A DNA stretch of 64,000 nucleotides from an uncultured Acidobacteriota bacterium (GTDB taxonomy: Bacteria; Acidobacteriota; UBA6911; RPQK01; CBDAPI01). This document shows positions 7,484-60,809 of this stretch, one piece after another. The position numbers were made by a program, and so were the translations under genes. The DNA lies in the NCBI GenBank assembly GCA_964565865.1, contig CAZMGM010000003.1, forward strand, positions 6,572 through 70,571. Reading direction: 5' to 3'. Position 1 is the stretch's first letter; the number at the start of each line of letters is the position of its first letter. The notes below the pieces were generated by a model, which ran no database searches, had not been told where the DNA came from, and worked only from the letters and a program-made list of their open reading frames with translations.

Positions 7484-8059
7484 TTAGCCGAATAATTTCA
7501 GCAGTACGAAGACCAGAATGCCCGTTGTGGACATATAGAGCCAGGCCGGGAAGGTGAAACGGGCAAGTTTTCTATGGTTGTGAAAACTGCCCGTGAAGGC
7601 GAGGTATAGCGTTGTCAGAATCAAGGGGAGTGTGATGGCTGCAGTCAGGACGTGGCTGAGCAGGATTGCCCAATACACTGTCTTTGCCCACCAGACACCC
7701 AAAAAGGGAGTGTTCCCGTGCAGGAAATGGTGGGTGATATAGCTGACCAGGAACACCACAGTGAAACAGCAGGAACTCAGCACAAAGCGCATGTGGACTC
7801 TGGCACGACCGCGCCGAATGGCCCGAACGCCCAGGATCAGGCAAGTCGCACTCAGAGTGTTCAAGGTGGCATTGAGGGCCGGGAGAAAAAGGAATTGATC
7901 GCTGAAGCCGTCAGCCGGCTCTTTTATGTACAAAATCCAAAGCAAAAAGGCGACCACAGAAATGCTTACCAGAAGGATCAAGGTCAGAACAGACGGACTT
8001 ACCCCGATCTTTGACCCGAGGCCGTAGAGCTTCAGATTGTAGTTCAACAAATTCTGCAT
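7484..8059 (-). CDS. DUF420-family integral membrane protein
   Basis: Four predicted TM helices and a conserved His-rich segment (ITHHFLHGNTPFLGVWW), typical of DUF420/YozB. Confidence 0.6.
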   Translation of the reverse strand: MQNLLNYNLKLYGLGSKIGVSPSVLTLILLVSISVVAFLLWILYIKEPADGFSDQFLFLPALNATLNTLSATCLILGVRAIRRGRARVHMRFVLSSCCFTVVFLVSYITHHFLHGNTPFLGVWWAKTVYWAILLSHVLTAAITLPLILTTLYLAFTGSFHNHRKLARFTFPAWLYMSTTGILVFVLLKLFG

Positions 8060-8347
8060 TTTTTCGTTAAGATACTACTACTGAGTAGGTCGTAATTCCA
8101 GATATTACACCTCTTGCCAACGATTCAGGGGCCGTAACCTGGTTTCTCCCGCTTCCGATGTATTTTCCTGCAGGCACCTCTTGGGTTGGGCGAGATCACG
8201 GCGCATAGGCGCGCCTCCTGCTGTGGGCGGCCATCACGAGACAACATTCGGTCCGGACTTGTTCTAAGGGCCTTTGAAGGCATCGGAGCCAGTACACACT
8301 GTTGACTGATTTTAAGTTTAGATTAGACTCGTCTACCCGGCAACACG

Positions 8348-8947
8348 ATGGCGGTCTCTAACGTTACAATAGTCTCTATGCGCAAACATCCTCCGGCATT
8401 TGCCCTGCTGTGGTTGGCCCTGGCCTGGAGCCTCTATGGGCAGGACATGGAGCTGAAAGCAAGGTCTATGTTAAAGGGTACCCTCCCTATCGGGTTCCCA
8501 ACGGAAATCCTGGATGCGGGGTTTGCCGTCATCGAGCTGACCATAATCAACAAGGGTGAATCGTCGAAGGAAGTGAGTCCCGATACAATTCTGACGTGGT
8601 CGCCCAAGAAAAAGCGGCTATCCCGTGTACTGCCCTCCAAGATTATGCCCAGAATGATGAAATTCTACCGGGGTCAGAATAGAATTGGCGGAGACATCTA
8701 CACGGGCTCCAGTCTCCCTCCAGGAGGGAATTCGGGGGGCGTGACTGCCGGTTCTAGGGCCAGGTCATATTCGGTCGTAGCCATCCAGCAACTACGGATT
8801 ATCCTGGAAGGGTATCAATTGAAAAAAGGCGCTCTGGAAGGGGGAGAATCCATTCAGGGTTACATTTACGTCAAGTCGAAGAAGCGGGGTGTGCAGTTGG
8901 CAGGGGGAAAGGTAGAAATAGACCAAACAAGCGCCGTGATTGAGTGA
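8348..8947 (+). CDS. Hypothetical secreted protein (signal peptide)
   Basis: N-terminal signal peptide MRKHPPAFALLWLALAWSLYGQ. No recognisable domain. Lies in an AT-rich region. Confidence 0.45.
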   Translation: MAVSNVTIVSMRKHPPAFALLWLALAWSLYGQDMELKARSMLKGTLPIGFPTEILDAGFAVIELTIINKGESSKEVSPDTILTWSPKKKRLSRVLPSKIMPRMMKFYRGQNRIGGDIYTGSSLPPGGNSGGVTAGSRARSYSVVAIQQLRIILEGYQLKKGALEGGESIQGYIYVKSKKRGVQLAGGKVEIDQTSAVIE

Positions 8948-9078
8948 GGTTCTGGATCGTTTCTGGGTACTAGCTGTTGTTGAAAGTTGAAAATTGGGAA
9001 TTTTGGAGGGCAGATTTCTCCCACTTTGTGATCCACGTTCTTAACTCAACTAAATTCTAGACTTTAAATTATAATAAC

Positions 9079-9252
9079 TTATAAATAAAAGGAAAAACTT
9101 ATACGTAATCCTTCAACGAATGGAGCCAGGCGAGCGACTGTGATCTGAAGGGTACTGAATATCCAGGAGAGCAGAATGATAAAACCGGCAAGGATTCCGA
9201 AAAGGCTGGCCGGGTGGGGAAGTGCATTTTCCAGCCGTTCCTGGCGGTTCAT
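9079..9252 (-). CDS. Hypothetical small single-TM protein (57 aa)
   Basis: Translated by hand from the minus strand: MNRQERLENALPHPASLFGILAGFIILLSWIFSTLQITVARLAPFVEGLRISFSFYL. It lies directly downstream of the SEC-C gene and is not in the ≥60-aa ORF track. Confidence 0.25.
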   Translation of the reverse strand: MNRQERLENALPHPASLFGILAGFIILLSWIFSTLQITVARLAPFVEGLRISFSFYL

Positions 9253-9306
9253 CTGAATGCGCTCACCCTGGTTGGGAAAAGTCTGAATCCTGCGTCAACT
9301 GTCGTG

Positions 9307-9549
9307 TCAGATTCGGAAAATTCTCTTGTACCAGGGGATCCCCAAGCGTTTCAGTTCTTCGCGGTGCCGCTGGCGGCTGAGCTTCTGCAGGAAGGCGTTT
9401 CCCCCCGACTGGTGGCAGTCCTTGTACTTGCGCCCGCTTCCACAGGGACAGGGCTCGTTCCTGCCCACGCGGAGCGATTTCCTAGGATCCTGAAAGGGAC
9501 CGGACTTGAGCATCTGACGTGTGATTTTCTGAGTTTTTTTTCTGGCCAT
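9307..9549 (-). CDS. SEC-C motif domain small protein
   Basis: Metal-binding SEC-C motif [13 protein letters not shown] in an 80-aa basic protein. Confidence 0.6.
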
Positions 9550-10143
9550 TGCAGTAGGGGGGATGATGCCTCCACCAAGATTGAATCATTTTCCCTTTTT
9601 CCTGGTCAACTCTCCCACCTAGCTCGACCCCTTTGGGAGTTCCTGGCTCCCACCACCTGGCCATCTTGCCGAATTCCAACACAGTAGGCTCCACCAAAGT
9701 AGGTCGACAGAGATTTCCAGTACCTTACCTGGTAGGCGATTTACTCCAGCGCTTGTCGGGTATTTTCTCCGAAGCCTGGTACTCACTTCAGGACGCCGTC
9801 CTCAGAGTGGAGCCCACGGACGTTGCACCGCACTTTCGAGGGAAAACTCAAAATCAATGAGTTTGGAGATCACCGGAAGGAGCGAAGTTCTGATTCGGGT
9901 GATTGCCCCGCTTCCGATGACAGCTCAACTCAATGATCCTAGAGAACAAGGGTGGGGTGCTCATCGTGGGGATTGTATGTCCGGGGGCCCGTCGTGTCTT
10001 GGCCGAAGTTTTCTTCGGCCTTGTCGCTCTCGAAGTTAGGTCGGAAGAACACTAAACCTCTAACTCGTGTCCTGGTATACTCGGGCTCGGTCGCCAGGAT
10101 GAGAAATCAGTCCGGCCCATCCCTTCGCTACAAGAAGCGTGAG

Positions 10144-19767: not shown

Positions 19768-19957
19768 GAGAAATGCAGCCCCTCCTGTCGCTTTCGCGAA
19801 CGCGGTCATTCTAGCAGTCCATGGTGATAGTCGCTAGCGGGCGCAAACCCTCCTCGCCGATGCGCTTCGACGTGGTCTGCGTCGGTTCGCCTTGCATCTG
19901 GGACCACGGCGCCCGTAGCGCGACCCTCGGGACTTTCACCACGGGCTGCTGACACTA
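19768..19957 (-). promoter_or_regulatory. Structured ~190-nt leader upstream of purS; candidate cis-regulatory RNA of undetermined class
   Basis: GC-rich non-coding spacer between the BMC-P stop and the purS ATG. It has long-range complementary segments (CGGGCGC…GCGCCCG; CGUGGUC…GACCACG). The only ORF in it (19806..20051, minus) is low-complexity. Confidence 0.3.
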
Positions 19958-20233
19958 TTAGGTGTCGAGCAGATCCACCTGATCCACTACTCCCACGACC
20001 GCCGCGTCCACCGGTGTGTAAAACTCCCCCAGGACGTTCATGGCCGCCCATCCATCGAGGGTGCAGAGCACTCGGTCGCCCACGCCGGAGTCGGCTCCAT
20101 CGATGGCAAGGACCTGTTCGCCACGCTCCTCTCCTTTGGGAGTAAGAGGCTGAACGAGAAGAAGTTTCTGTCCCTCGAAACAGGAATCCTTCTTAGTAGA
20201 AAAAAGCTGATCGACTACTCTTCCGATGATCAT
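19958..20233 (-). CDS. BMC vertex protein (BMC-P, EutN/CcmL family), paralog 3
   Basis: 91 aa with the PF03319-like pattern MIIGRVVDQLFSTKKD…GQKLLLVQP…VLAIDGADSGVGDRVL…VVGVVDQVDL. 4-nt overlap with the upstream paralog. Confidence 0.85.
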   Translation of the reverse strand: MIIGRVVDQLFSTKKDSCFEGQKLLLVQPLTPKGEERGEQVLAIDGADSGVGDRVLCTLDGWAAMNVLGEFYTPVDAAVVGVVDQVDLLDT

Positions 20234-20508
20234 GTCGGGGAGCCCGGAAAGTTGGCCCTATCCAAAATTCCGACAATCGAGCAGTCGGATGGCACACGAT
20301 CCGGGTACCAGGGGAAGCTTCCCTCTTTCCCGGTTACGTAAAAAACAAGTTCCCCTGGTCCTGCCCCCACCGAGTCAAGGGCTACGCGGATGGGTCCCAC
20401 GGGATGACCTGTACGGTCGATCGGCCTGACCAGGAGGATTTTGTGGCCGGTCAGTGACGGATCCTTGATGGTAGTGACAACCGTTCCGACGATTTCGCCC
20501 AGGTTCAT
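20230..20508 (-). CDS. BMC vertex protein (BMC-P, EutN/CcmL family), paralog 2
   Basis: 92 aa, MNLGEIVGTVVTTIKDPSLTGHKILLVRP…ALDSVGAGPGELV…CSIVGILD. 4-nt overlaps on both sides. Confidence 0.85.
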   Translation of the reverse strand: MNLGEIVGTVVTTIKDPSLTGHKILLVRPIDRTGHPVGPIRVALDSVGAGPGELVFYVTGKEGSFPWYPDRVPSDCSIVGILDRANFPGSPT

Positions 20509-20792
20509 AGTTTGGACGTGGGGGTTCCATCGAAGTCGACGGCGTCGACGATTCCGACAATGGAGCAGTCCACCGGATGATCGGTCAATCCGTTGGCCAT
20601 CCGGGCTGAACTGCCTCGTACGATGATGACGGTCTCGCCTGCTCCGGCGCCGACTGTGTCGACCGCCACATGGTACCCGGAGGGATTCCCCGTCTCCGGA
20701 TCGATGGTCTTAACGATGAGTAGCTTTTTCCCCTGGAGCTTCTCGTCCTTACGGGTGGCGACTACGGTCCCGGCAACTTTACCTAGAAGCAT
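20505..20792 (-). CDS. BMC vertex protein (BMC-P, EutN/CcmL family), paralog 1
   Basis: 95 aa, MLLGKVAGTVVATRKDEKLQGKKLLIVK…AVDTVGAGAGETVIIV…CSIVGIVD. Confidence 0.85.
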   Translation of the reverse strand: MLLGKVAGTVVATRKDEKLQGKKLLIVKTIDPETGNPSGYHVAVDTVGAGAGETVIIVRGSSARMANGLTDHPVDCSIVGIVDAVDFDGTPTSKL

Positions 20793-20830
20793 GGGTGCTC
20801 AGAACCTTCTTTTCGGAATCGGGAAGTTGG

Positions 20831-21118
20831 TTATTTAGGGATGATGGGAAGACGTTCATCCAGGCTCGAATGGGGTCGCGGTATTACGTGAACGCTTACT
20901 AGCTCTCCTACCCGTCGAGCTGCGGCAGCTCCTGCGTCGGTGGCGGCTTTGACCGCGGCTACCTCTCCTCGAACGATGGCTGTCACGAGGCCGCTGCCGA
21001 TCTTTTCATAGCCAACCAGGGTAACCTTGGCAGCCTTAACCATCGCGTCGGCGGCTTCAACCATGGCAATGAGACCCTTCGTCTCTACCATTCCCAAAGC
21101 TTCCAGCGAATCGGCCAT
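20831..21118 (-). CDS. BMC hexameric shell protein (BMC-H, PduA/EutM/CcmK family)
   Basis: Canonical PF00936 sequence: [54 protein letters not shown]…VHVIPRPH. Confidence 0.9.
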
Positions 21119-21151
21119 TTCCGGTAGTGTCTCCCAGGATTCTGGACCTGC

Positions 21152-21985
21152 TTATCGGTCCCTGTTCATCTCCAGTACAACTCTCTCAACGATCTCATCG
21201 ATTTCCCGCGGAGATAACGTGAGAGGGTGTTCGCCGTGGGCAGTTACGGGACAGTCAGTCTGCCGCGAAACTGGAGCATTTATACCATACTTCCCACTGA
21301 CGTCAAAAAGTTTGTCCACAGATTCCCGAGTGAGTAAACTCTGCTTTCCAAGGATGCGTGTCAGTAAAGAGATCTTGGCAAAATGTTCGAGAATTTCCAT
21401 GCGGAAAAAGGCCTTTTGCAGATCCGATCCCATAGTGATTGCGCCGTGATTGGCAAGCAGGATTGCGTTGTGTTCGGGGACTAGATCAGTGAGGCTGTTG
21501 GCCAGTTCATCGGTGGAAGGAGTCCCGTAGGGCGCGATCGGGACACAGCCCAGAGTGAGTACAACCTCGGGCATAAGGGCTTCACGGAGTGGAAGACCGG
21601 CAACCGCGTGTGCGGTTCCGTACACGGGATGTCCGTGACAGACCCCCGTCACGTCAGGACGGCCCCGGTAGACTAGCACGTGCATTTTGATTTCACTGGA
21701 AACTCCGCGCCCTCCTTCCAGCTGGTGTCCCTCAAGGTCAGTTGTAACCAGGTCTTCAGGCTGCAGATCTCCCTTGCACAAGCCTGTCGGAGTGGCAAGC
21801 AGCCGTTCTCCCATTCGGATCGACAGGTTGCCTTCGTTGGCGCAGATCAGGTCTTTGGCATACATTCTCCGGCCGATCTCACAGATGAGTTCCCGCGCTT
21901 GCCATTCGATCATCATCAGCTCCGGGTTCCGAGCTCCCAGTTCCGGGCTGGCACTGGTCGTCACTCCCGCCATTACAGGTTCCAC
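21152..21985 (-). CDS. Class II aldolase (fuculose-/rhamnulose-phosphate aldolase-like) with a C-terminal encapsulation-peptide-like amphipathic helix
   Basis: Aldolase_II motifs: Zn-ligand histidines in VCHGHPV and the conserved LLANHGAITMG. About 40 aa past the domain end there is a linker followed by an amphipathic helix (LSPREIDEIVERVVLEM). Alternative start MM at 21913. Confidence 0.8.
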   Translation of the reverse strand: MEPVMAGVTTSASPELGARNPELMMIEWQARELICEIGRRMYAKDLICANEGNLSIRMGERLLATPTGLCKGDLQPEDLVTTDLEGHQLEGGRGVSSEIKMHVLVYRGRPDVTGVCHGHPVYGTAHAVAGLPLREALMPEVVLTLGCVPIAPYGTPSTDELANSLTDLVPEHNAILLANHGAITMGSDLQKAFFRMEILEHFAKISLLTRILGKQSLLTRESVDKLFDVSGKYGINAPVSRQTDCPVTAHGEHPLTLSPREIDEIVERVVLEMNRDR

Positions 21986-22070
21986 GTTCTACGAACCTTC
22001 AACCTGTAACTGTCAACTGTCAACCTTCAACCTTCAACTGTCAACCAGTAACCGGTAAGCCAGTCCCAGA
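21986..22070. repeat. Heptanucleotide tandem repeat (about 9 units, consensus AACYKTC), copy 1 of a dispersed family
   Basis: gaaccttc|aacctgt|aactgtc|aactgtc|aaccttc|aaccttc|aactgtc|aaccagt|aaccggt, in the divergent region between the aldolase and ruvA. Confidence 0.7.
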
Positions 22071-22088
22071 GCAGTCCGGTTCGCTATA

Positions 22089-22697
22089 ATGCAACCTATG
22101 CTTGCCCGACTCAGGGGAACGCTGACGGAGAAGTCGGCCGGCCAGATTATCATCGATGTGAACGGGGTAGGATACGAGGTGTTCATCCCTTTCTCCACTT
22201 ACTATGAACTGGCCGAACCGGGAGACAGAGTCACGCTTCACATTTACACTCATGTTAAAGAAAACGATCTGAGCCTTTATGGATTCTCGACTCAACGGGA
22301 AAAGGATCTTTTCAATCTGTTGATCCAAATTTCCGGCATCGGCCCCAAGCTGGGAGTGACTATTCTCTCGGGACTTCCAGCAGAGGAACTGGCCGAAGCG
22401 GTCGTGGCAGGTGACCTGGTGCGCTTGCATTCTATTCCGGGGGTGGGAAAGAAGACGGCAGAGCGGATCATTCTCGAGCTCAAGGAGAAGCTCGACCGGT
22501 TCCTTCCGGAGAGGTCCTCACAAGATGCTGCAAGGTCTGGCAGCGGGATGGGCGGCGACGTGGTCTCTGCCCTGGTTAATCTTGGTTACCAGAAGGCAGC
22601 TGCCGAGAAAGCCGTCAGCGCCATCAATAGGGAAGGGACGAATTGTGGCTTTCAGGCCCTCTTGAGGGGGGCTTTGAGTCACCTTTCTGGCTCTTAG
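22089..22697 (+). CDS. ruvA: Holliday junction DNA helicase RuvA
   Basis: RuvA N-terminal OB domain and HhH motifs (LIQISGIGPKLGVTIL; LHSIPGVGKKTAERI). Confidence 0.9.
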   Translation: MQPMLARLRGTLTEKSAGQIIIDVNGVGYEVFIPFSTYYELAEPGDRVTLHIYTHVKENDLSLYGFSTQREKDLFNLLIQISGIGPKLGVTILSGLPAEELAEAVVAGDLVRLHSIPGVGKKTAERIILELKEKLDRFLPERSSQDAARSGSGMGGDVVSALVNLGYQKAAAEKAVSAINREGTNCGFQALLRGALSHLSGS

Positions 22698-22722
22698 CCA
22701 GCGAAGAGGTTGAATCGTTCTT

Positions 22723-23748
22723 ATGGAAGAAGACAATCGCTTCCTCGATCCGTCCTTGAAGGATGGGGATCGATCGCTAGAGAACAGTTTGCGTCCGCGT
22801 GCGATGAAGGAGTTCATCGGACAGCCCAGGGTCAAGGAGAGCTTGGGTATCTCTATCCAGGCAGCCCTTCACCGCAGCGATCCCCTCGACCATGTGCTTT
22901 TATACGGCCCGCCGGGGCTTGGAAAAACGACCCTGGCTCAGATCATTGCTCAGGAATTGGGTGTGAACTTCAGGAGCACCTCGGGACCAACCGTAGAGAG
23001 ACGAGGTGATTTGGCAGCAATTCTGACCAACCTGGAACCGAATGATGTGCTCTTCATTGATGAGATTCACCGGCTTCACCCGGCCATCGAGGAAATCCTG
23101 TACCCGGCGATGGAGGATTTCAAGATTGACATCATCATCGGCGAGGGACCGGGTGCTCGGTCGATTTCCCTCGAAATTCCCCGGTTTACTCTGGTGGGGG
23201 CGACCACACGCAGCGGGCTGTTGACATCTCCTCTGCGGGCACGGTTCGGAATCTTACAGCGACTCGATTTTTATACCCAGGCAGACCTGGCTGAAGTGGT
23301 TCAACGATCGGCCGGGATACTCGGGATTGAGGTTGATCCAGGTGGCGCCGGAGAGATTGCAAAGCGCAGCCGTGGTACTCCTAGGATTGCCAACCGTCTG
23401 CTCAAGAGAGTCCGGGACTACGCTCAAGTCAGAGAAGACGGCTTTGTGGACGACGCGATTGCCTGCCGGGGGCTGGAGCTCATGAACGTAGATTCGCAAG
23501 GACTGGACGAGACCGACCGAAAGCTTCTGTTGACGATCATTGACAAGTTCGATGGAGGTCCGGTGGGCATCAAGACGATCTCGGCTGCGATTTCAGAGGA
23601 AACGGATGCCATTGAGGACATCTACGAGCCCTACCTGATCCAGGTAGGTTTCTTGAATCGGACTCGCAGGGGCCGAGTCGCTACACGGCTGGCCTTTGAA
23701 CACCTGGGAAAAACCTACGACCCAGCACCTCAGAAACGACTCTTCTAA
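22723..23748 (+). CDS. ruvB: Holliday junction DNA helicase RuvB
   Basis: AAA+ P-loop ([11 protein letters not shown]), sensor motifs and a RuvB winged-helix C-terminus. Confidence 0.95.
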
Positions 23749-24078
23749 GTCTTCTTCGCTAGGACTCCCGTCCAGTCAAACAGAACTTCCAGTCCCGGTT
23801 TGACGAGCTCTCCCAGATGCTTGCACAGATTATCAAGGGCAAGCAGGAAGTCCTTGATCTGACCTTGAGGATCGCACCTGTCTGGGTGCTGTAGGAACCT
23901 CCACCGAAGCCGCCTCCGATTTTGCCGAAAGCTCCGTCGAGTCCTTTTTCTTTTTCTCGGTTCCAAACTGCGTGATGCTGCTCACGATCATTGTATTCAC
24001 TCCCAGGACTTTGCCGATCCGGGCCGCTGTCTTCCAGGTTCTGCTCGGCGAGAATCTTATCCCGCCAGTTTCACTCGA

Positions 24079-24279
24079 TCACACGAAGGGTCCCATTTGT
24101 GACAAGTTCAGTGATGATGAGGTCGTAAATTCTTTGTCGATGTCCCAGTTGCCACGCCACCATTGTTGGACGGTTCCGAAATCGAAGTTCATGACAGCAG
24201 CGCGTTTTCTGTCTCTGGCCTGGCAAGGTACACTGAACAGGTAGGCAAAACAGAGAACCAAAGGCAATCGCAGTGCCAT
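24079..24279 (-). CDS. Hypothetical small secreted ORF; possibly the 5' remnant of a disrupted gene
   Basis: Signal-peptide-like MALRLPLVLCFAYLFSVPCQA. The ORF ends at a TGA after 66 aa. The following minus-strand region (23745..24078) has further open frames with no clear gene. Confidence 0.2.
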   Translation of the reverse strand: MALRLPLVLCFAYLFSVPCQARDRKRAAVMNFDFGTVQQWWRGNWDIDKEFTTSSSLNLSQMGPFV

Positions 24280-24353
24280 TTCTAGGTCTTCCGAGTTAGA
24301 GCTGGTCACTCTGATGGTTTAGCAGTTCCTACCGGATATAATCCCAGGCTCGT

Positions 24354-24965
24354 ATGGCAGAGGGCTGTTTTTCTCCATTTGTGTTACTGCGAAGGCTCTA
24401 TGAATGGGTATTGAGCTGGGCTGAGCATCGGTCGGCCCTGTGGGCATTGTTTGGCCTGTCCTTCGCCGAAGCGTCTTTCTTTCCGGTCCCGCCCGATGTC
24501 CTTTTGATGGCGATGGCAATCGGAAAACCGCGGCGAGCTCTTCGTTTTGCCCTGGTGTGTCTGGCTGGTTCCCTGTTGGGGGGGCTCTTCGGATATCTGC
24601 TGGGTTATCATTTTTACGCCCTGATCGGAAAACCCATCATTGGCCTATACTCGGCTGGCGACCAATACGAAAAGGTGCGTGAACTGTTTAAGACCTGGAA
24701 TGCCGTCGCCGTCGCCGTGGCCGGGTTTACGCCCATTCCCTTTAAAGTCTTCACGATTGCTGCTGGTGCTTTCCGGGTCAATCTGCTGACTTTTTTCCTG
24801 GCGGCAGCCGCGAGCCGGAGCGCCCGCTTCTTTCTTGTTGCGGGATTGATCTACTATTTCGGCCCGGCGGTCAAGGAGAAGATCGATCGCTATTTTAACC
24901 AGTTAACGGTCCTTTTCATGATCCTTCTCGTGGGTGGATTTTTGGTTCTGAAGTATGTATTGTAG
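24354..24965 (+). CDS. YqaA/DedA-family membrane protein
   Basis: Multi-TM protein with the DedA/SNARE-associated segment ([14 protein letters not shown]…[15 protein letters not shown]). Confidence 0.65.
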
Positions 24966-24982
24966 GAGGCCTTTTTGAGGAG

Positions 24983-25059
<77 letters not shown>

Positions 25060-25063
25060 GCTT

Positions 25064-25351
25064 GTGTCGACTCCAGAAGGGATTCATTCACGGCACTACT
25101 ACCTAACTGGACGGGTGCAGGGAGTGGGTTTTCGCTACTATGTATACCGTAAGGCGTTCGAGCTGCAAGTGAAGGGTTGGGTACGAAATCTCGCTGATGG
25201 CCGGGTAGAGTGCTGGGCTGAGGCAGATACCAGGGCGTTGGACGTTTTTGAGCGTCATGTGCGGACGGGTCCCAGCCTCGGCCGGGTCAAGTCCATGGAG
25301 GTCGAAGCGCAGCGGCCGCGCGGTTATTCTGATTTTTCGATTGAGGTCTAG
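25064..25351 (+). CDS. acyP: Acylphosphatase
   Basis: Acylphosphatase signature [13 protein letters not shown]…[12 protein letters not shown]. The only canonical start is GTG at 25064, 5 nt after the tRNA-Pro 3' end. Confidence 0.7.
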
Positions 25352-25363
25352 CAGCCCGCTAAT

Positions 25364-25879
25364 ATGGAAGAACTTAAGAAGCTGATCCGAGAAGTGCCGG
25401 ATTTCCCCAAACCCGGGATCCTTTTCTATGATGTAACGACGCTGCTGAAGGATGCTGCCGGTCTACGCTCGGTTCTTGGCCACTTCGAGGAAACCTTTCG
25501 GGATCAACCGATCGACAAAGTAGTGGGGATCGAATCACGGGGATTCATTCTGGCACCAACGATTGCCGCACGGTGCAACGCCGGTTTTGTGCCGATTCGC
25601 AAGCGCGGCAAACTTCCGGCGGAGACGATCGAGGCATCCTACGAGTTGGAGTATGGAGTCGACAGCTTGGAGGCACACCTTGACTCCATTGAAGAAGGCG
25701 AGAATGTCCTCATTGTGGATGACCTTTTGGCAACCGGAGGCACGGCCCGGGCGGCCCTGGAACTGGTTCGAAGACTGGGCGGAAACATAACCGCCGTGGC
25801 ATTCTTGATCGAGCTGGAATTTCTGTCGGGTCGCGATCAGCTGGGCGACGTCGAAGTGTTCTCGCTGCTGCGCTACTAG
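25364..25879 (+). CDS. apt: Adenine phosphoribosyltransferase
   Basis: PRTase PRPP-binding motif [14 protein letters not shown] and an APRT-like N-terminus ([15 protein letters not shown]). Confidence 0.9.
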
Positions 25880-26084
25880 TGGACGGTAATACCTGAAGCG
25901 CTAGCGCCTGAGCTACTCTCGACCCCGATCTGGGCCTTGTACCTCCTCGCCGCCATAGTCCTGGCTATGCCTCGTCCACGCGGCCTTGACCTCGGTTCCG
26001 AATGGCGCTCGCTCATCCACCAGCGATTCAAGCATTACAGTCCAGTACTAGAAAGGCTCGAGCGATGAGGTGTGGCCCACCGTT

Positions 26085-26135
26085 ACCGGCAAAAGTGCAA
26101 AGTAGAAAGTGCCTTGAACCTTCAACTTTCAACCA
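26085..26135. repeat. Heptanucleotide-repeat element, copy 2 (about 3 units)
   Basis: gaaccttc|aactttc|aaccagg, in the convergent gap between apt and the TPR gene. Confidence 0.5.
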
Positions 26136-26148
26136 GGAAAGGTCTTTT

Positions 26149-26961
26149 TTATCCGCTGTTTTCACCTGGGTTCTCGGGGTCTGCTTCAGCATCTTTGGAG
26201 GTGGGATGGGACTCCTTTCCAGAACCTGTCTCGTTCTCCAGCAGCGCGATGCGAGCCTCGATAGAGGCCACGTTGGGCAGCGCCGGGTGTTCGTCCTTGA
26301 GCCTCTTGAAGAGGTCCAGAGCCTCCGCCTTTTGCCCGGCCGCGTCATAGGTCTTGGCCAGGTTCGACATGATTTCCGAAGCAGGGACATGCGACGAGGG
26401 ATCATCCAGGATCTGGTTCCAGGCCTCGATTGCCTGAGGGCGCTGGCCCAGGTGAAGGGCCAAGAGGGCGACGTGGTTCCGAGCCAGATTGCGCATTTCC
26501 GGTCGCGACGACTGGTCGACAATGTCGCGAAACGACTCCAGGGATTCCTGGTAATGTTTCAGTCTTCGCTGCGTGACCCCAACGTAGAATCGAGCTAGTT
26601 CGCCTACCACCGACCAGCCCTGCTGATCAGCGATTTGGCGAAATCTTCGGAGGGCGTTCTCGTCCCGGGACTCTGTACTGGTGTAAGGCAACTCTCCATC
26701 GGGCTGCGCCTGATCCTCGGCATCCGGCACCACGGCGTTGAAGATCTTCAGGGCCCCGGCCAGCTCGTCCTGCGCTGCCTTTTTGCGGCTAACCTGGACG
26801 GCGTCGAAACCCCAGTAACCGATACCGGCTAGGATGACCGCTGCCACTCCTACCAGTAGGTAGTTGCGGTATTCAATCACTCTCTCCCAGGTTTCAACTA
26901 GAAGAAAGCGAATCCGATCTTCGCTGATTTCCTTACGCGTGAGGTGTTTTGGTCTGGGCAA
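26149..26961 (-). CDS. Membrane-anchored TPR-repeat protein (YfgM/YbgF-like)
   Basis: N-terminal TM helix (LLVGVAAVILAGIGYWGF) followed by TPR-like helical repeats. Confidence 0.55.
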   Translation of the reverse strand: MPRPKHLTRKEISEDRIRFLLVETWERVIEYRNYLLVGVAAVILAGIGYWGFDAVQVSRKKAAQDELAGALKIFNAVVPDAEDQAQPDGELPYTSTESRDENALRRFRQIADQQGWSVVGELARFYVGVTQRRLKHYQESLESFRDIVDQSSRPEMRNLARNHVALLALHLGQRPQAIEAWNQILDDPSSHVPASEIMSNLAKTYDAAGQKAEALDLFKRLKDEHPALPNVASIEARIALLENETGSGKESHPTSKDAEADPENPGENSG

Positions 26962-27145
26962 AGCGAGCCTCCATGTTAACAGCCCGTGGTGAAAGTCTCG
27001 CCGCCACCCACAGGGCTGGGCGGCCTGGGGGCGATGTCGGTGTCGTTTGTCGTCTCTGATGAACTTGCATTGGTTTCTTCCTCGTGCCTTGCCAGCGAAC
27101 CCAGTTCCCTAGCGTGCGACCTTCACTAGGGACTGCTAAAGAGCT

Positions 27146-27219
27146 TGCGCCTGGCAGGACTCGAACCTGCGACACACGGGTTAGGAACCCGTTGCTCTAT
27201 CCTTCTGAGCTACAGGCGC
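27146..27219 (-). tRNA. tRNA-Arg (anticodon CCT)
   Basis: Minus-strand sequence GCGCCTGTAGCTCAGAAGGATAGAGCAACGGGTTCCTAACCCGTGTGTCGCAGGTTCGAGTCCTGCCAGGCGCA: perfect 7-bp acceptor, anticodon stem ACGGG/CCCGT with loop TTCCTAA. No encoded CCA. Confidence 0.85.
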
Positions 27220-27277
27220 CTTAGGGTAGAAAACTGGTATAAAAAACCAGTTTAGCAAAAAGGATCCACGCCGTGCT

Positions 27278-28480
27278 ATGGTGGACAGAGTCGAGGAAGA
27301 ATTGACGCAGCGCTCCTCTAGACAAACGGTACACGTTGTCGGCGGCTCTCTTGCAACCTATGCCATGCGGGATGACGAGAGCAAGGGGAGACGCCATCCG
27401 GAACCCTCTCACTCATATCGCTCCGAGTTTCAACGAGATCGGGATCGGGTCGTACACACGAAGGCATTTCGTCGCCTGGAGAACAAGACTCAGGTTTTTG
27501 CTTCCCGGCTGTCAGACCATTTTAGGACTCGACTCACCCACACTCTGGAAGTGACCCAGATAGCTACAACCATTGCTCGAGCCCTGAGGCTGAACATTGA
27601 CCTCTGCGAGGTGCTCGGTCTGAGCCATGATATCGGACACCCTCCCTTCGGACATGAGGGTGAGAAGGTGCTGGATCAGATCATGAGAGACAATGGATCA
27701 GGGTTTGATCACAACCTTCACGCATTGCGTATTGTGGAGGATTTCGAGGTCAAGTATGCGGGCTTTCGAGGGCTCAACCTGACCTACGAGGTCAGAGAAG
27801 GGATTGTCAAGCACAGCAGTGACTGGGCTGATTCGACGCGAGCCTACCTGGATTTGAGCGAGTACGAACCCGGGGTGAAGCCGCCCCTGGAGGCCCAGGT
27901 CATCGATATCGCTGACGAGATCGCCTACAACACAGCAGATCTTGACGACGGGTACCGCTCGGGCTTGCTTTCATCTGATTTGATCGGAGCGGAAGTCCCA
28001 ATGTTTGCCCAAATTTCCCAGACAGTTCGGGCCAGGCATCCAGAGGCGGAGGAACGGATATGGGTCAATGAAACACTGCGGCTCCTCATCGACTATCTAG
28101 TAACCGATCTGATCGAGTTTACAGAGAAGACATTGAAGCAGCTGAGGGTGCGAGGAGTCGAAGACGTTCGGGCCGGTGAGACCCGGCTGGTCTCTCTCAG
28201 CCCCTCGGCTTTGCAGGACAATCGGCAATTGAAGACGTTCCTGACCGAAAATCTGTATGCCGATTCCACTCTCCGATCGGCTCAATTATCAGCTCGCAGG
28301 CTGATTGAGGTACTGTTTGTCCACTATCGAGACAACCCTGGAAAGCTGCCTTCACATCATCGGTCAAGACTGAGTGAGACAGGACTACCCCGGGTGATCT
28401 GCGACTATATAGCGGGAATGACGGACGGCTACGCTGCACAGCAGTTCGACTCCATAGGTGAAATTCAAGAAGCTCCCTAA
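27278..28480 (+). CDS. dGTP triphosphohydrolase-like HD-domain protein
   Basis: HD motif (HTLEVTQIA…LSHDIGHPPFGH) and a dGTPase-like C-terminal region. Confidence 0.8.
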   Translation: MVDRVEEELTQRSSRQTVHVVGGSLATYAMRDDESKGRRHPEPSHSYRSEFQRDRDRVVHTKAFRRLENKTQVFASRLSDHFRTRLTHTLEVTQIATTIARALRLNIDLCEVLGLSHDIGHPPFGHEGEKVLDQIMRDNGSGFDHNLHALRIVEDFEVKYAGFRGLNLTYEVREGIVKHSSDWADSTRAYLDLSEYEPGVKPPLEAQVIDIADEIAYNTADLDDGYRSGLLSSDLIGAEVPMFAQISQTVRARHPEAEERIWVNETLRLLIDYLVTDLIEFTEKTLKQLRVRGVEDVRAGETRLVSLSPSALQDNRQLKTFLTENLYADSTLRSAQLSARRLIEVLFVHYRDNPGKLPSHHRSRLSETGLPRVICDYIAGMTDGYAAQQFDSIGEIQEAP

Positions 28481-54281: not shown

Positions 54282-54340
54282 GAGAGAGTTCCACGTTCCA
54301 CCAACCTTCGATTTTCAACCAGAAACCATTAACCGTTAAC
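54282..54340. repeat. Heptanucleotide-repeat element, copy 3
   Basis: agagttccacgtt…aacc|ttcgattttc|aaccaga|aaccatt|aaccgtt|aact, with a 7-bp period. It shares the leader agagttccac with copy 4. Confidence 0.55.
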
Positions 54341-55093
54341 TCGTTTCCGGCGGATACGATCCTGTAGGATAGTCTCAGCTCGGGCCAGCTGCTGCAGGTT
54401 GTTCACACCAAGGACCTCCTGTGCCGGAGCCTCCACTGTTTCTACAGGCAAGGCATCCCGTCCCAGAAGTGCCACTGTGTCGGTCAACAGGTACTCTCTT
54501 TGCTCGTTGTCATCGGAGACGCGGTCAAGGACCGGGAACAAGCGTCGCACATCGAAACAGTAGTACCCGGGATTGACCTCCCGGATTTTCTGCTGTTTTT
54601 GGGTAGCGTCCTTTTCCTCAACGATTCGCAGCGGTTCTCCGGCATTCCGTATCACACGCCCGTATCCCTTCGGGTCTTCCAGGTGACTCGTAATCAGTGC
54701 CAGCGCCGCGCCCGACTGCTCCCTGGTGCGGAGCAGGTCGTGTAGCCGTTCACTAGTGATGAGCGGACCATCGCCATGAAGAACCAGAACGCTCCCCCGC
54801 TTTCCGTGCAGGTAAGACTGGGTCATCGATACAGCGTGTGCCGTTCCCAGCTGCTGTGTCTGCGTTACCCATGTCACTGGCCAACCAGCAAACCGCTGTC
54901 GCACCTGCTCCGCCTGATGCCCCACGACCACGAGGGTCTGAGACAAGGTGAGGGCGCCGAGCCGGGTAAGAACATGTTGCAACATGGGAGCTCCACAAAG
55001 GGAATGTAGAACCTTGGGAAGCGATGAATGAAATCGAGTGCTCCTGCCGGCTGCCAGGACCACTGCGTAGCGCGATGGAGCCATGGTCAGCAC
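54329..55093 (-). CDS. Sugar-nucleotide nucleotidyltransferase, GlmU N-terminal-domain-like (no acetyltransferase domain)
   Basis: NTP_transferase signature VVLAAGRSTRF…LPKVLH and the conserved YYCFD. The left-handed β-helix is absent. Confidence 0.7.
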   Translation of the reverse strand: MLTMAPSRYAVVLAAGRSTRFHSSLPKVLHSLCGAPMLQHVLTRLGALTLSQTLVVVGHQAEQVRQRFAGWPVTWVTQTQQLGTAHAVSMTQSYLHGKRGSVLVLHGDGPLITSERLHDLLRTREQSGAALALITSHLEDPKGYGRVIRNAGEPLRIVEEKDATQKQQKIREVNPGYYCFDVRRLFPVLDRVSDDNEQREYLLTDTVALLGRDALPVETVEAPAQEVLGVNNLQQLARAETILQDRIRRKRVNG

Positions 55094-60691: not shown

Positions 60692-60775
60692 AAGAGTTCC
60701 ACATTTTCCGTTTTGCCCACTATCAACCGTCAACCGGTAGCCAGTAGTTGGTAACCGGCAACCAATTCCTGCTTG
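60692..60775. repeat. Heptanucleotide-repeat element, copy 4
   Basis: gaagagttccacatt…tatcaac|cgtcaac|cggtagc|cagtagt|tggtaac|cggcaac|caattcc, between korB and the FadB-like gene. Confidence 0.55.
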
Positions 60776-60809
60776 CATCTGCTACCTTCATCAGGCAAGT
60801 TCTTGGACC

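What the first reader, a model, noticed from the sequence alone, without database searches (positions are those of the whole stretch)
21986..22070. Dispersed family of 7-bp-period tandem repeats (AACYKTC)n at four intergenic sites
Four intergenic spacers hold arrays of 3 to 9 heptameric units built on AACC/AACT (…aaccttc aacctgt aactgtc aactgtc aaccttc…). They lie at 21986-22070, 26085-26135, 54282-54340 and 60692-60775. Copies 3 and 4 share a 12-nt leader (agagttccacgtt / agagttccacatt). The arrays contain GTTAAC and GGTAACC palindromes. They occur in mixed contexts: a divergent promoter region, two convergent 3' ends and a tandem gene boundary. A 7-bp phased repeat recurring four times in 64 kb suggests a REP/BIME-like or small non-autonomous element family, or an arrayed binding site for a nucleoid-associated protein. 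Unit-number variation would make them VNTR-like typing loci.
Basis: seen in the sequence. Interest (0 to 1): 0.55.

Follow-up and report, generated by a model that had tools for sequence, protein, structure and literature searches.

The report
Dispersed heptamer repeat arrays between genes
The four sites are real members of a family of 7-base tandem repeats (AAC plus four bases) that fills spaces between genes in this acidobacterium and many other environmental bacteria. It is a new example of a known but poorly understood kind of bacterial simple-sequence repeat, not a transposon-like REP element.

Summary
All four spacers carry AAC-phased heptamer arrays far above chance, and I found a fifth small one at 8979-8996.

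The "leader" GTTCCAC is itself a heptamer unit. It is the antisense of AACGTGG.

The window comes from a marine Acidobacteriota lineage. The GTTCCAC+AACCTTC composite recurs in related MAGs. AACYTTC arrays also occur in more than 120 metagenome contigs, 47 viral contigs and a Mucilaginibacter-like contig (Bacteroidota).

Nearly identical sequences differ by whole units: 11 units in one pair, 3 in another. This points to slippage and VNTR-like behaviour.

Orthologous spacers in relatives hold arrays at the same positions but with different units (AACCTTC, AACCCAG, GTTCTGG).

The arrays follow a polarity rule: the C-rich AAC strand points at the adjacent gene. Among Pfam-validated genes, 24 of 25 that end at an array read the G-rich strand, which has TGA in all three frames. 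Facing arrays always have the G-arm 5'. They fold into very stable hairpins that resemble REP elements in behaviour only.

Best reading: STRR/TAACTGA-like heptanucleotide simple-sequence arrays, made by slippage and filtered for compatibility with flanking genes. REP/RAYT membership and a Rho-loading (rut) role are not supported. A protein that reads the 7-nt register remains possible.

The parts
21917..21993 (-). Left arm of site 1. Degenerate heptamer/14-mer tract that abuts the true aldolase start codon (21916). It ends in GTTCCAC GTTCTAC G (21979-21993), which reads AACGTGG-type units on the minus strand.
   Evidence: TRF finds a period-14 repeat at 21918-21949. The aldolase alignment with L197 starts at residue 24 of the ORF. 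Orthologues carry (AACCTGG)n or (AACCCAG)4 at the same place.
21994..22064 (+). Site 1 main array. Ten AAC-phased heptamers that end 20 nt upstream of the conserved ruvA -10 box.
   Evidence: Orthologous arrays with different units lie upstream of the same TTCGCTATAAT in L193, L196, L197 and L198.
22085..22090 (+). TATAAT, part of the TTCGCTATAAT motif conserved in most of the relatives compared (L197/L198 read TTCGATATAAT). It lies about 8 nt before the ruvA ATG at 22098, so it is probably the -10 box of a leaderless ruvA mRNA. It is context, not part of the repeat.
   Evidence: the spacers compared end in this motif or the one-base variant. RuvA is called at 199 aa in relatives. The promoter role is inferred.
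26092..26112 (-). Site 2 left arm: AAAGTGC AAAGTAG AAAGTGC. These are degenerate inverse units, so site 2 is a weak G-arm/C-arm pair.
   Evidence: The fold is only -14.5 kcal/mol with z +1.3, so it is not a convincing hairpin.
26117..26137 (+). Site 2 array: AACCTTC AACTTTC AACCAGG. Its 3' end lies 11 nt from the stop codon of the converging TPR gene (26149).
   Evidence: L197/L198 have (AATCTTC)3 at the orthologous position.
54288..54301 (-). Site 3 leader: (GTTCCAC)2, which reads (AACGTGG)2 on the minus strand. It starts 6 nt after the carB stop codon.
   Evidence: L201 has (GTTCCTC)4 just after its carB stop codon.
54303..54344 (+). Site 3 array of six units. Its last units overlap the 3' end and the TAA stop (54329-54331) of the converging nucleotidyl-transferase gene.
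60696..60702 (-). Site 4 leader: a single GTTCCAC unit (then ATT), 4 nt after the stop codon of the 2-oxoacid:ferredoxin oxidoreductase beta gene.
   Evidence: L200 has (GTTCCAC)2 GTTTAAC GTCTCAC GTCTCA and L202 has (GTTCTGG)2 at the same place.
60725..60766 (+). Site 4 array of six degenerate units. Its 3' end lies 43 nt before the ATG of the 3-hydroxyacyl-CoA dehydrogenase gene (60810).
   Evidence: This part is absent from the orthologous spacers in L199-L202.
8979..8996 (-). The + strand reads GTTGAAAGTTGAAAATTG, so the minus strand reads AATTTTC AACTTTC AAC. It lies 31 nt after the stop codon of the + strand ORF 8348-8947.
   Evidence: TRF and sequence. The flanking ORF comes from the mechanical list only.

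Best explanation
These are heptanucleotide simple-sequence arrays of the same kind as cyanobacterial STRR and the TAACTGA repeats. They are a lineage-wide family with unit AAC-N4: AACCTTC, AACTTTC, AACTGTC, AACCAGT, and GTTCCAC when an AACGTGG unit is read from the other strand.

Shown:
- Arrays sit in spacers between genes.
- They change length in whole 7-bp steps between near-identical genomes.
- They persist at orthologous spacer positions while the unit sequence is replaced.

Inferred mechanism:
- Replication slippage creates, expands and homogenises the arrays. A 7-nt unit cannot be tolerated in most coding DNA.
- Selection then filters orientation. The C-rich AAC strand has no stop codon, no ATG/GTG/TTG, little or no G, and little structure. 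The G-rich strand has TGA in all three frames and SD-like GAAGG.
- So arrays survive next to genes only with the AAC strand running toward the gene. A gene that ends at an array reads the stop-rich strand. A gene that starts after an array gets the harmless strand.

Likely secondary effects (inferred, untested):
- Spacing or upstream-element effects at promoters. Site 1 occupies the -35/UP position of the ruvA promoter.
- A three-frame stop cassette at gene ends (sites 2 and 3).
- Where two arrays face each other, long mRNA hairpins that act like REP elements. These are seen in other organisms and only weakly at site 2.
For: Family is real and widespread:
- The composite GTTCCACGTTCCACGAACCTTCAAC is found in 5 loci of 3 Acidobacteriota MAGs, and each 8-kb locus holds up to 4 arrays.
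Locus GC runs from 0.30 to 0.70.
- One locus is 98% identical in its ATP synthase delta protein to Mucilaginibacter sp. E4BP6.
- The window itself is Acidobacteriota (RuvB homologue names).

Slippage:
- L161 and L190 have 99.9-100% identical flanks, and their arrays differ by 77 bp, which is 11 units.
- L197 and L198 encode the same RuvB protein but carry (AACCCAG)3 and (AACCCAG)6.
- L062 and L184 differ by one unit.
- Decay at the two array edges is symmetrical, as expected for simple-sequence repeats.

Persistence with unit turnover:
- In the aldolase|ruvA spacer, the array upstream of the conserved -10 box is AACCTTC/AACTGTC in the window, AACTTTC/AACCTTC in L193 and AACCCAG in L196/L197.
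- Next to the aldolase start codon the units are GGAACYS/AACGTGG-type in the window, (AACCTGG)n in L193 and (AACCCAG)4 in L197.
- The orthologues of sites 2, 3 and 4 behave likewise.

Polarity:
- Of Pfam-validated genes with a stop codon within 20 nt of an array, 24 read the G-rich strand and 1 reads the C-rich strand. In 11 of the 24 the stop lies 3-16 nt outside the array.
- None of 14 ORFs that would read through a sense array and end just beyond it was validated.
- Among validated gene starts within 25 nt, 10 have the C-strand as sense and 4 the G-strand.
- Inverse arrays were found only 5' of the AAC array: 23 detections, about 12 pairs, against 0 on the 3' side. One search gave 20 against 2 pair records, about 15 loci against 2.
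- By my own tabulation, all the roughly 12 arrays in the window and in clade loci that have tool gene calls obey the rule.

Little structure: the window arrays fold no better than shuffled sequence at sites 2-4.
Against: - The identical 25-nt junction of two different unit types at three separate loci of one MAG (L002, L012, L018) is hard to get from independent slippage. It hints at copying between loci, or at selection for the composite.
- Most multi-copy period-7 arrays in loci chosen by RuvB homology, not by motif, contain AAC: about 10 of 14 against roughly 0.2 expected. This is my own count. The same motif across phyla could mean that a trans-acting factor, rather than neutral drift, fixes the AAC core and the 7-nt register.
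- The 24:1 bias at stop codons holds even when the array does not supply the stop (11 against 1). The selection I propose, against read-through after loss of the stop codon, would be weak in that case.
- In the window, the GTTCCAC units lie 4-6 nt after the stop codons of carB and the oxidoreductase beta gene. GTTCCAC has no stop codon on either strand, so the stop-cassette logic does not cover them.
- Nothing here shows transcription, protein binding or any effect on expression.
- Gene calls for the metagenome loci were my own ORF calls. Only those with Pfam hits were counted.
Confidence: 0.6

Rival explanations
1. The arrays are cis-elements read in single-stranded form (RNA or ssDNA) by a protein with a footprint of about 7 nt, such as a cold-shock-domain protein or ribosomal protein S1. 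The AAC core and the register are what is recognised. The arrays would tune translation initiation or coupling and define mRNA ends.
For: - AAC is kept while the other four positions drift between orthologous arrays.
- The polarity rule is strict with respect to gene boundaries.
- Arrays abut start codons. (AACCCAG)4 touches the aldolase start in L197, and the hairpin 3' arm ends at the sucD AUG in L073.
- MacGregor 2015 (PMC4679880) proposed S1, Csp or CsrA-like binders for the analogous TAACTGA repeats.
- A Nostoc preprint reports expression effects when heptamer repeats are deleted (10.1101/2022.06.06.494920).
- The 7-subsite footprint of cold-shock proteins is from my memory, not tested here.
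Against: - No binding data exist.
- Arrays occur in 5', 3', convergent and intercistronic contexts.
- Site 1 lies upstream of the inferred ruvA transcription start, so it would not be in that mRNA.
- The bias at gene starts is only 10 to 4.
- The family spans phyla with very different translation-initiation signals.
Confidence: 0.2
2. The arrays are a small non-autonomous mobile element family, REP/BIME/REPIN-like or MITE-like, spread by a RAYT or another transposase.
For: - An identical composite junction at several loci in one genome.
- A sharp 5' boundary just before GTTCCAC in the copies compared.
- Inverted pairs with a fixed arm order, as in REPINs, that fold at -32 to -54 kcal/mol with z from -4 to -10.
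- Presence in viral contigs.
Against: - The units are direct, non-palindromic heptamers.
- The window copies do not form hairpins.
- No terminal inverted repeats or target duplications were noticed, though they were not searched for systematically.
- The 3' boundary and unit types vary from copy to copy.
- Arrays sit at orthologous positions in relatives, with the unit replaced rather than the element present or absent.
- No PF01797 (Y1 transposase) appears in the Pfam lists of the genes called in 11 clade loci.
- A true REP-like GTAG...CTAC double hairpin exists in relatives L199 and L201. It looks quite different and is absent from the window.
Confidence: 0.1
3. The C-rich, G-poor arrays are Rho-utilisation (rut) sites. 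They would load Rho just after stop codons and terminate transcription.
For: - AACCTTC is 43% C and 0% G, and the window arrays are unstructured.
- At sites 3 and 4 the C-rich tract begins 4-6 nt after the stop codon of a + strand gene.
Against: - Across validated genes the orientation is the opposite. 24 of 25 genes ending at an array transcribe the G-rich strand.
- Many arrays lie upstream of genes or promoters.
Confidence: 0.05
4. The arrays are phased binding sites on duplex DNA for a nucleoid-associated protein or transcription factor, like the TTTTGAT heptads of the ctxAB promoter.
For: - Site 1 and its orthologues occupy the region 17-46 nt upstream of the conserved ruvA -10 box.
- Heptad arrays in the ctxAB promoter are a known precedent (abstract of 10.1101/2021.05.14.444153).
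Against: - A 7-bp period puts successive sites on different faces of the helix.
- The unit sequence differs between orthologous promoters (AACCTTC against AACCCAG).
- Most arrays are at gene ends or between cistrons, not at promoters.
Confidence: 0.08

Closest known systems
TAACTGA heptamer direct repeats of marine Beggiatoaceae, some Cyanobacteria and Bacteroidetes (MacGregor 2015, PMC4679880)
   Same: - Tandem 7-nt units with an AAC core, usually 2-6 copies and occasionally dozens.
- Hundreds of intergenic sites, often a few nucleotides upstream of start codons.
- Patchy distribution across phyla, with no transposition machinery known and function unknown.
- Relatives of this window even carry (CGACTGA/CAACTGA)4 arrays, and site 1 contains AACTGTC units.
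   Different: - The unit is AACYTTC/AACCAGT/AACGTGG, not TAACTGA.
- The host is Acidobacteriota.
- Arrays here are at least as common at gene ends, with a strict strand rule and G-arm/C-arm hairpin pairs. The parts of that paper I read do not describe these features.
STRR (short tandemly repeated repetitive) heptamers of heterocystous cyanobacteria: CCCCAGT, TTGGTCA, CAACAGT (Mazel et al. 1990; recalled from memory, not read here)
   Same: Several co-existing heptamer families dispersed in non-coding DNA of one genome. Different unit types lie side by side.
   Different: The taxon and unit sequences differ. No polarity rule is known to me for STRR.
Long simple sequence repeats with 5-11 nt units (Mrazek et al. 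2007, as summarised in PMC4679880)
   Same: Heptanucleotide units were the most abundant class in most genomes. Polymerase slippage was proposed as their origin. They are excluded from coding DNA because 7 is not a multiple of 3.
   Different: That is a statistical class, not a motif family. I did not read that survey, and my literature searches found no paper linking heptamer repeats to Acidobacteria or containing this motif.
REP/BIME/REPIN elements (Bertels and Rainey 2011, PMC3116915; listed, features from memory)
   Same: - Short intergenic repeats.
- Inverted pairs in a fixed arrangement form hairpins between genes in operons (atpF|atpH, sucC|sucD, pyrH|frr). So they plausibly work like REPs on mRNA.
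   Different: - The unit is not an imperfect palindrome.
- Arrays are tandem direct repeats of variable number.
- No RAYT association was found.
- The window copies are unpaired.
Promoter heptad arrays such as TTTTGAT in Vibrio cholerae ctxAB (10.1101/2021.05.14.444153, abstract only)
   Same: A tandem heptamer array upstream of a promoter whose copy number varies between strains.
   Different: That is a single-locus, AT-rich site bound by a transcription factor. Here there is a genome-wide family in every kind of spacer.

Membership tests
Heptanucleotide long simple-sequence repeats (LSSR) | Head-to-tail copies of a 5-11 nt unit, longer than chance allows in that genome | tested here: met
   7 and 10 pattern hits against 0.00 and 0.07 expected. 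TRF reports period-7 arrays.
Heptanucleotide long simple-sequence repeats (LSSR) | Length changes in whole units between close relatives (slippage) | tested here: met
   An 11-unit difference between L161 and L190, and 3 against 6 units between L197 and L198. This is not shown for the window's own loci, because the only other copies found are 100% identical.
STRR / TAACTGA-type dispersed heptamer families | The same unit family recurs at many non-coding loci of one genome | tested here: met
   5 sites in 64 kb here, and 2-4 per 8 kb in related MAG loci.
STRR / TAACTGA-type dispersed heptamer families | The specific unit sequence (CCCCAGT, TTGGTCA, CAACAGT or TAACTGA) | tested here: not met
   The units are AACCTTC, AACTTTC, AACTGTC, AACCAGT and GTTCCAC. 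Only the AAC(TG) core is shared.
TAACTGA repeats | Most copies lie in forward orientation within a few nt upstream of start codons | tested here: inconclusive
   Among validated starts within 25 nt, 10 arrays are forward and 4 reverse. At least as many arrays abut stop codons.
REP / BIME / REPIN | The unit is a 20-40 nt imperfect palindrome that folds on its own | tested here: not met
   The window arrays fold no better than shuffles at sites 2-4 (z +0.4 to +1.3 on the + strand at sites 2 and 3, -0.7 at site 4). The units are direct repeats.
REP / BIME / REPIN | Association with a RAYT (Y1 transposase) gene flanked by the repeats | tested here: inconclusive
   No PF01797 appears in the precomputed Pfam lists of the genes called in 11 clade loci. 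No whole genome could be scanned, and window genes outside 12089-32697 were not scanned.
REP / BIME / REPIN | Inverted doublets in a fixed arrangement that form hairpins | tested here: inconclusive
   True in other organisms: about 12 pairs with the G-arm 5' and none the other way, folding at z -4 to -10. In the window, only site 2 has a weak pair.
MITE | Terminal inverted repeats and target-site duplication with defined ends | not tested
   The 5' edge is sharp but the 3' edge varies in the copies compared. I noticed no terminal inverted repeats or duplicated flanks, but I made no systematic search.
Rho-utilisation (rut) sites | A C-rich, G-poor, unstructured tract in the transcript downstream of the stop codon | tested here: not met
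   The composition fits. But 24 of 25 validated genes ending at an array transcribe the G-rich strand.
Known RNA families (Rfam) | Match to a curated covariance model | tested here: not met
   Only three tRNAs reach the gathering score in the window.
Protein-binding heptad arrays (ctxAB type) | A defined protein binds the repeats and copy number sets promoter activity | not testable with these tools
   Only position is known. Site 1 and its orthologues lie 17-46 nt upstream of the conserved ruvA -10 box.

The most novel reading that the evidence does not exclude
AAC-phased heptamer arrays may be a cross-phylum cis-element system. It is seen here in Acidobacteriota and Bacteroidota and, for related AAC-containing units described by others, in Cyanobacteria and Beggiatoaceae.

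In this reading a conserved single-strand nucleic-acid-binding protein with a 7-nt footprint reads the register and the AAC core. The strict rule that the AAC strand points at the gene, together with the G-arm/C-arm hairpins between cistrons, would then reflect a function. That function could be defining mRNA ends and coupling or tuning translation of the flanking genes, rather than mere tolerance. Slippage would give a built-in rheostat for expression.
Probability: 0.13. Interest if true: 0.75.

Novelty: new member of a known kind. Interest (0 to 1): 0.4.

Why it matters
Heptanucleotide tandem repeats are the commonest class of long simple-sequence repeat in many bacteria. Thirty-five years after STRR was described, nobody knows why the unit is 7 nt or what the arrays do.

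This family adds several things:
- A new phylum (Acidobacteriota).
- A motif shared with a close relative of a cultured Mucilaginibacter isolate (98% identical in one protein).
- Direct evidence for unit-number polymorphism.
- Orthologous arrays whose unit turns over while their position is kept.
- A clear strand rule relative to stop and start codons (24:1 and 10:4).

Any functional or neutral model must explain that rule. If the isolate itself carries the arrays, reporter and pull-down experiments become feasible.

For annotation, the arrays matter in three practical ways:
- They shift predicted gene ends and starts. The aldolase start is called about 20 codons too early here.
- They can break assemblies.
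- They could serve as VNTR markers for uncultured lineages.

Tried and rejected
- Rfam at gathering threshold found only tRNAs.
- RNA folding of the four window arrays on both strands gave no structure beyond shuffles, except a modest z of -2.0 at site 1. A structured-RNA reading was dropped.
- The consensus terminator/promoter scan of 21000-27500 found nothing at the arrays and no more sites than in shuffles.
- Replication-strand idea. All four main arrays lie on the G-skewed + strand. In 68 metagenome loci the AAC strand shows no skew association (34 of 68), and viral loci lean the other way. The fifth array and the leaders are on the other strand. Rejected.
- Polar, leader-end growth. Edge decay is symmetrical once the bias of the search pattern is allowed for. 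Rejected.
- Rut/Rho idea. It is contradicted by the validated orientation at stop codons.
- Crude ORF-based orientation counts gave weak, conflicting signals because of shadow ORFs. About 40% of ORFs ending at arrays had no Pfam hit. Only Pfam-validated genes were used for the final counts.
- Break-healing by telomere-like addition would explain the G-arm/C-arm order. It fails for the GTTCCAC+AACCTTC composite, where both arms are C-rich on the same strand. I kept it only as a remote idea.
- The window's population copies (L023-L025) are 100% identical, so there is no VNTR information for these loci themselves.
- A literature search for the motif strings returned nothing.
- A search for the REP-like GTAG hairpin of relatives in the window returned nothing.
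- The weak AAC tract at 10050-10072 (3 of 5 phased AAC) was not counted as a member.
Full report

Yes. Read directly, each of the four spacers holds units of 7 nt that start with AAC on the + strand:
- Site 1: ten units, 21994-22064.
- Site 2: three units, 26117-26137.
- Site 3: six units, 54303-54344.
- Site 4: six units, 60725-60766.

AAC at four consecutive 7-nt steps occurs 7 times in the window against 0.00 expected from dinucleotide-preserving shuffles. AACY at three steps occurs 10 times, at sites 1-3, against 0.07 expected. Tandem Repeats Finder reports period-7 arrays at the same places.

GTTCCACRTT occurs exactly three times in 64 kb, all on the + strand and all immediately 5' of arrays 1, 3 and 4.

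A permissive scan found a fifth small array on the other strand at 8979-8996. Rfam finds only three tRNAs in the window.

**2. Gene context**

Pfam confirms the flanking genes:
- Site 1: class II aldolase (-) | ruvA (+), divergent.
- Site 2: phosphoribosyltransferase (+) | TPR protein (-), convergent.
- Site 3: carB (+) | nucleotidyl-transferase (-), convergent. The array overlaps the last codons and the stop of the minus gene.
- Site 4: 2-oxoacid:ferredoxin oxidoreductase beta (+) | 3-hydroxyacyl-CoA dehydrogenase (+), tandem.

Alignment with an orthologue shows that the aldolase really starts at residue 24 of the ORF, which is position 21916. The site 1 spacer is therefore 21917-22097, and a degenerate 7/14-nt periodic tract (21918-21949) abuts the aldolase start codon.

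**3. Whose genome, and are there more copies?**

The same sequence is found in marine metagenome assemblies (ERZ23491077, SRR5007147). All copies are 100% identical, so they give no copy-number information. RuvB and oxidoreductase homologues at 65-75% identity are named Acidobacteriota or Acidobacteria, and a tight clade of unnamed relatives lies at 77-91%.

Scanning one genome per species for leader plus first unit gave 22 hits. About 17 are expected by chance, but five are plainly the same thing: GTTCCACGTTCCACGAACCTTCAAC followed by more units, in three Acidobacteriota MAGs, with three of the loci in one MAG. Those 8-kb loci hold up to four arrays each, on both strands.

(GTTCCAC)2 is found only in this clade's loci and in none of 167 loci collected by the AACCTTC motif. 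The composite is therefore specific to this clade.

**4. The motif reaches far beyond this clade**

Nearly every hit is a true tandem array. The units counted were AACCTTC (383), AACTTTC (112), AACCTGA, AACCTGC, AACGTTC and others.

Locus GC runs from 0.30 to 0.70. One locus is 98% identical in its ATP synthase delta subunit to Mucilaginibacter sp. E4BP6, which is Bacteroidota. No paper in the searchable library contains the motif.

**5. Evidence for slippage**

- Two IMG/VR contigs with 99.9-100% identical flanks differ by exactly 77 bp, or 11 units, within the array.
- Two contigs that encode the same RuvB protein have (AACCCAG)3 and (AACCCAG)6 upstream of ruvA.
- Two 92%-identical loci differ by one unit.
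- Unit similarity decays symmetrically at both edges once the search-pattern bias is allowed for. That is typical of simple-sequence repeats, not of polar addition.

**6. Orthologous spacers**

Synteny around ruvAB and around the oxidoreductase genes is conserved in relatives.

The aldolase|ruvA spacers compared end in TTCGCTATAAT (TTCGATATAAT in L197/L198), about 8 nt before the ruvA ATG. This is probably the -10 box of a leaderless mRNA (inferred), and it puts the true ruvA start at 22098. Upstream of it, four of the five lineages compared have a clear heptamer array, but with different units:
- Window: AACCTTC/AACTGTC.
- L193: AACTTTC/AACCTTC.
- L196 and L197: AACCCAG.
- L194/L195: only decayed 7-nt periodicity.

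At the other end of the spacer, next to the aldolase start, there are minus-strand arrays: (AACCTGG)n in L193, and (AACCCAG)4 touching the start codon in L197.

- Site 2's position next to the TPR stop holds (AATCTTC)3 in L197. In L193 it is replaced by a perfect 30-bp bidirectional terminator hairpin.
- After the oxidoreductase-beta stop (site 4), L200 has (GTTCCAC)2 GTTTAAC GTCTCAC GTCTCA, L202 has (GTTCTGG)2 and L201 has a decayed version. The closest relative, L199, has none.
- After carB (site 3), L201 has (GTTCCTC)4.

So array presence and position are old, while the unit is replaced. That is concerted evolution of tandem repeats in place. It is not insertion and excision of a fixed element.

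In the loci chosen by protein homology rather than by motif, most multi-copy period-7 arrays still contain AAC. By my count this is about 10 of 14, against roughly 0.2 expected.

**7. What the "leader" is**

GTTCCAC read on the other strand is GTGGAAC, which in register is AACGTGG. Leader plus array is therefore two AAC arrays on opposite strands that diverge from a junction.

This matches a general rule seen in the large sample. When an inverse array lies within 170 nt of an AAC array, it is always on the 5' side: 23 detections (about 12 pairs) against 0. One search gave 20 against 2 pair records, about 15 loci against 2.

**8. Polarity relative to genes**

Crude ORF counts were ambiguous because of shadow ORFs, so I validated the flanking ORFs with Pfam.

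| Boundary | Gene reads G-rich strand | Gene reads C-rich strand |
|---|---|---|
| Stop codon within 20 nt of an array | 24 | 1 |
| Start codon within 25 nt of an array | 4 | 10 |

- In 13 of the 24 stop-side cases the stop lies inside or at the edge of the array. In the other 11 it lies 3-16 nt outside.
- None of 14 candidate ORFs that would read through a sense array and end just beyond it was validated.
- By my tabulation, all the roughly 12 arrays in the window and in clade loci that have tool gene calls follow the same rule: the AAC strand runs 5' to 3' toward the nearest gene boundary.

Sequence logic fits this. (AACCTTC)n has no stop codon, no ATG/GTG/TTG and no G. (GAAGGTT)n has TGA in all three frames within 21 nt, plus TTG and SD-like GAAGG.

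**9. Hairpins**

Where the two arms are complementary, they fold into very stable stem-loops of -32 to -54 kcal/mol, with z from -4 to -10.

Three of these lie between cistrons of operons: atpF|atpH in the Mucilaginibacter-like contig, sucC|sucD and pyrH|frr. Others lie between convergent genes (L059).

These pairs plausibly act like REP elements on mRNA. The window's own arrays are unpaired and fold no better than shuffled sequence, and site 2 has only a weak pair.

**10. Interpretation**

The best-supported account is a family of heptanucleotide simple-sequence arrays that is generated and resized by replication slippage. The arrays are excluded from coding DNA. Their orientation is filtered by what each strand would do to the neighbouring gene.

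Secondary effects are inferred, not shown:
- Promoter spacing or an upstream element at ruvA.
- A three-frame stop cassette at the ends of the TPR and nucleotidyl-transferase genes.
- mRNA hairpins where arrays are paired.

What this account does not explain well:
- The identical two-unit-type junction at several loci of one genome.
- The conserved AAC core and the shared motif across phyla.
- The 11:1 bias at stop codons even when the array does not provide the stop.

These points keep open a factor that reads the 7-nt register, as MacGregor proposed for the TAACTGA repeats (PMC4679880).

Three rivals are weakened by tests:
- A REP/RAYT or MITE identity fails the structural tests.
- A rut role is contradicted by the orientation at stop codons.
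- A duplex-DNA binding array is disfavoured by the 7-bp phase and the unit turnover.

**11. Comparison and novelty**

The kind is known. Examples are LSSR heptamers (Mrazek 2007, as summarised), cyanobacterial STRR (from memory) and TAACTGA repeats (PMC4679880).

This is a new member: a new unit family and a new phylum. It adds a quantified polarity rule, a fixed arm order in pairs and documented unit turnover at orthologous sites. I rate interest as moderate at 0.4. It is not a new class of element, but it gives a concrete and testable regularity for an old open question, and possibly a culturable host.

Noticed in passing
window 8979-8996: A fifth heptamer mini-array on the minus strand. The + strand reads GTTGAAAGTTGAAAATTG. 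It lies 31 nt after the stop codon of the + ORF 8348-8947 and is followed by GATCCACGTTC, which differs from the leader by one base.
   Followed up: partly
window 21914-21985: The aldolase ORF is called from 21985 or 21973, but homology starts at residue 24 (MMIEWQ...). The real start is probably the ATG at 21916, preceded by GGAGCTG. The 'N-terminal extension' is repeat-derived 5' sequence, which shows how these arrays mislead gene callers.
   Followed up: yes
window 22080-22100 and L193-L198: TTCGCTATAAT is conserved (one-base variant in L197/L198) about 8 nt before the ruvA start codon across relatives with 87-91% RuvB identity. This suggests a leaderless ruvAB mRNA, with the true RuvA start at 22098 (199 aa).
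   Followed up: partly
window 19806-21916: A bacterial-microcompartment cluster (three EutN/CcmL genes, one BMC-domain gene and a class II aldolase) lies directly next to purS/purQ/purL and is conserved in all relatives fetched.
   Followed up: no
window 60772-60805; L199-L202 spacers: A conserved partly palindromic element, CTTGCATC-N9-12-CATCAGGCAAGTTC, lies just upstream of the 3-hydroxyacyl-CoA dehydrogenase ATG in the window and all four relatives. It may be an operator or an RNA element for the fatty-acid oxidation gene.
   Followed up: no
L199 8892-8950; L201 8950-9010: A REP-like double hairpin sits in the orthologue of the site 4 spacer in two relatives. In L201 it reads GTAGGGGCGACCCTTGTGGTCGCCC...GGGCCGGCACAAGACCGGCCCCTAC; the L199 copy starts at GGGCGACCC and lacks the leading GTAG. 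It is absent from the window. This clade therefore also has a classical hairpin repeat, distinct from the heptamers.
   Followed up: partly
L193 17798-17898: A perfect bidirectional intrinsic terminator of about 30 bp (A-run, stem, T-run) occupies the PRTase|TPR spacer, where the window and L197 carry a heptamer array instead.
   Followed up: no
L196 9139-9167; L197 9165-9193: (CGACTGA/CAACTGA)4 arrays lie in the aldolase|ruvA spacer of relatives. They differ by one or two bases from the TAACTGA repeats described in Beggiatoaceae and cyanobacteria.
   Followed up: no
L197 11045-11154: A perfect (TGGTTAC)12.7 array, which is (AACCAGT)n on the other strand, is joined to (AACCTTC)3 right after the ruvB stop codon. 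It shows the same AACCTTC-to-AACCAGT order of unit types as the 3' end of window site 1.
   Followed up: partly
IMGVR_UViG_3300048778_000586 (L154, L163, L171, L180, L187): One 51.6-kb viral contig carries at least seven separate AACYTTC arrays, six of them on one strand. Phage or prophage DNA therefore accumulates the same repeats as cellular genomes.
   Followed up: no
L063 about 4225-4241; L044 about 6672-6706: A few arrays lie inside Pfam-validated genes (AMP-binding enzyme, FAD_binding_4) in sense orientation. The L063 array has three units, which is 21 nt or 7 codons and so preserves the frame.
   Followed up: no
window 9040-9100: An AT-rich stretch (ctaaattctagactttaaattataataacttataaataaaagg) lies downstream of the fifth array. 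It falls in the window's lowest-GC interval (0.515 for 8001-10000).
   Followed up: no
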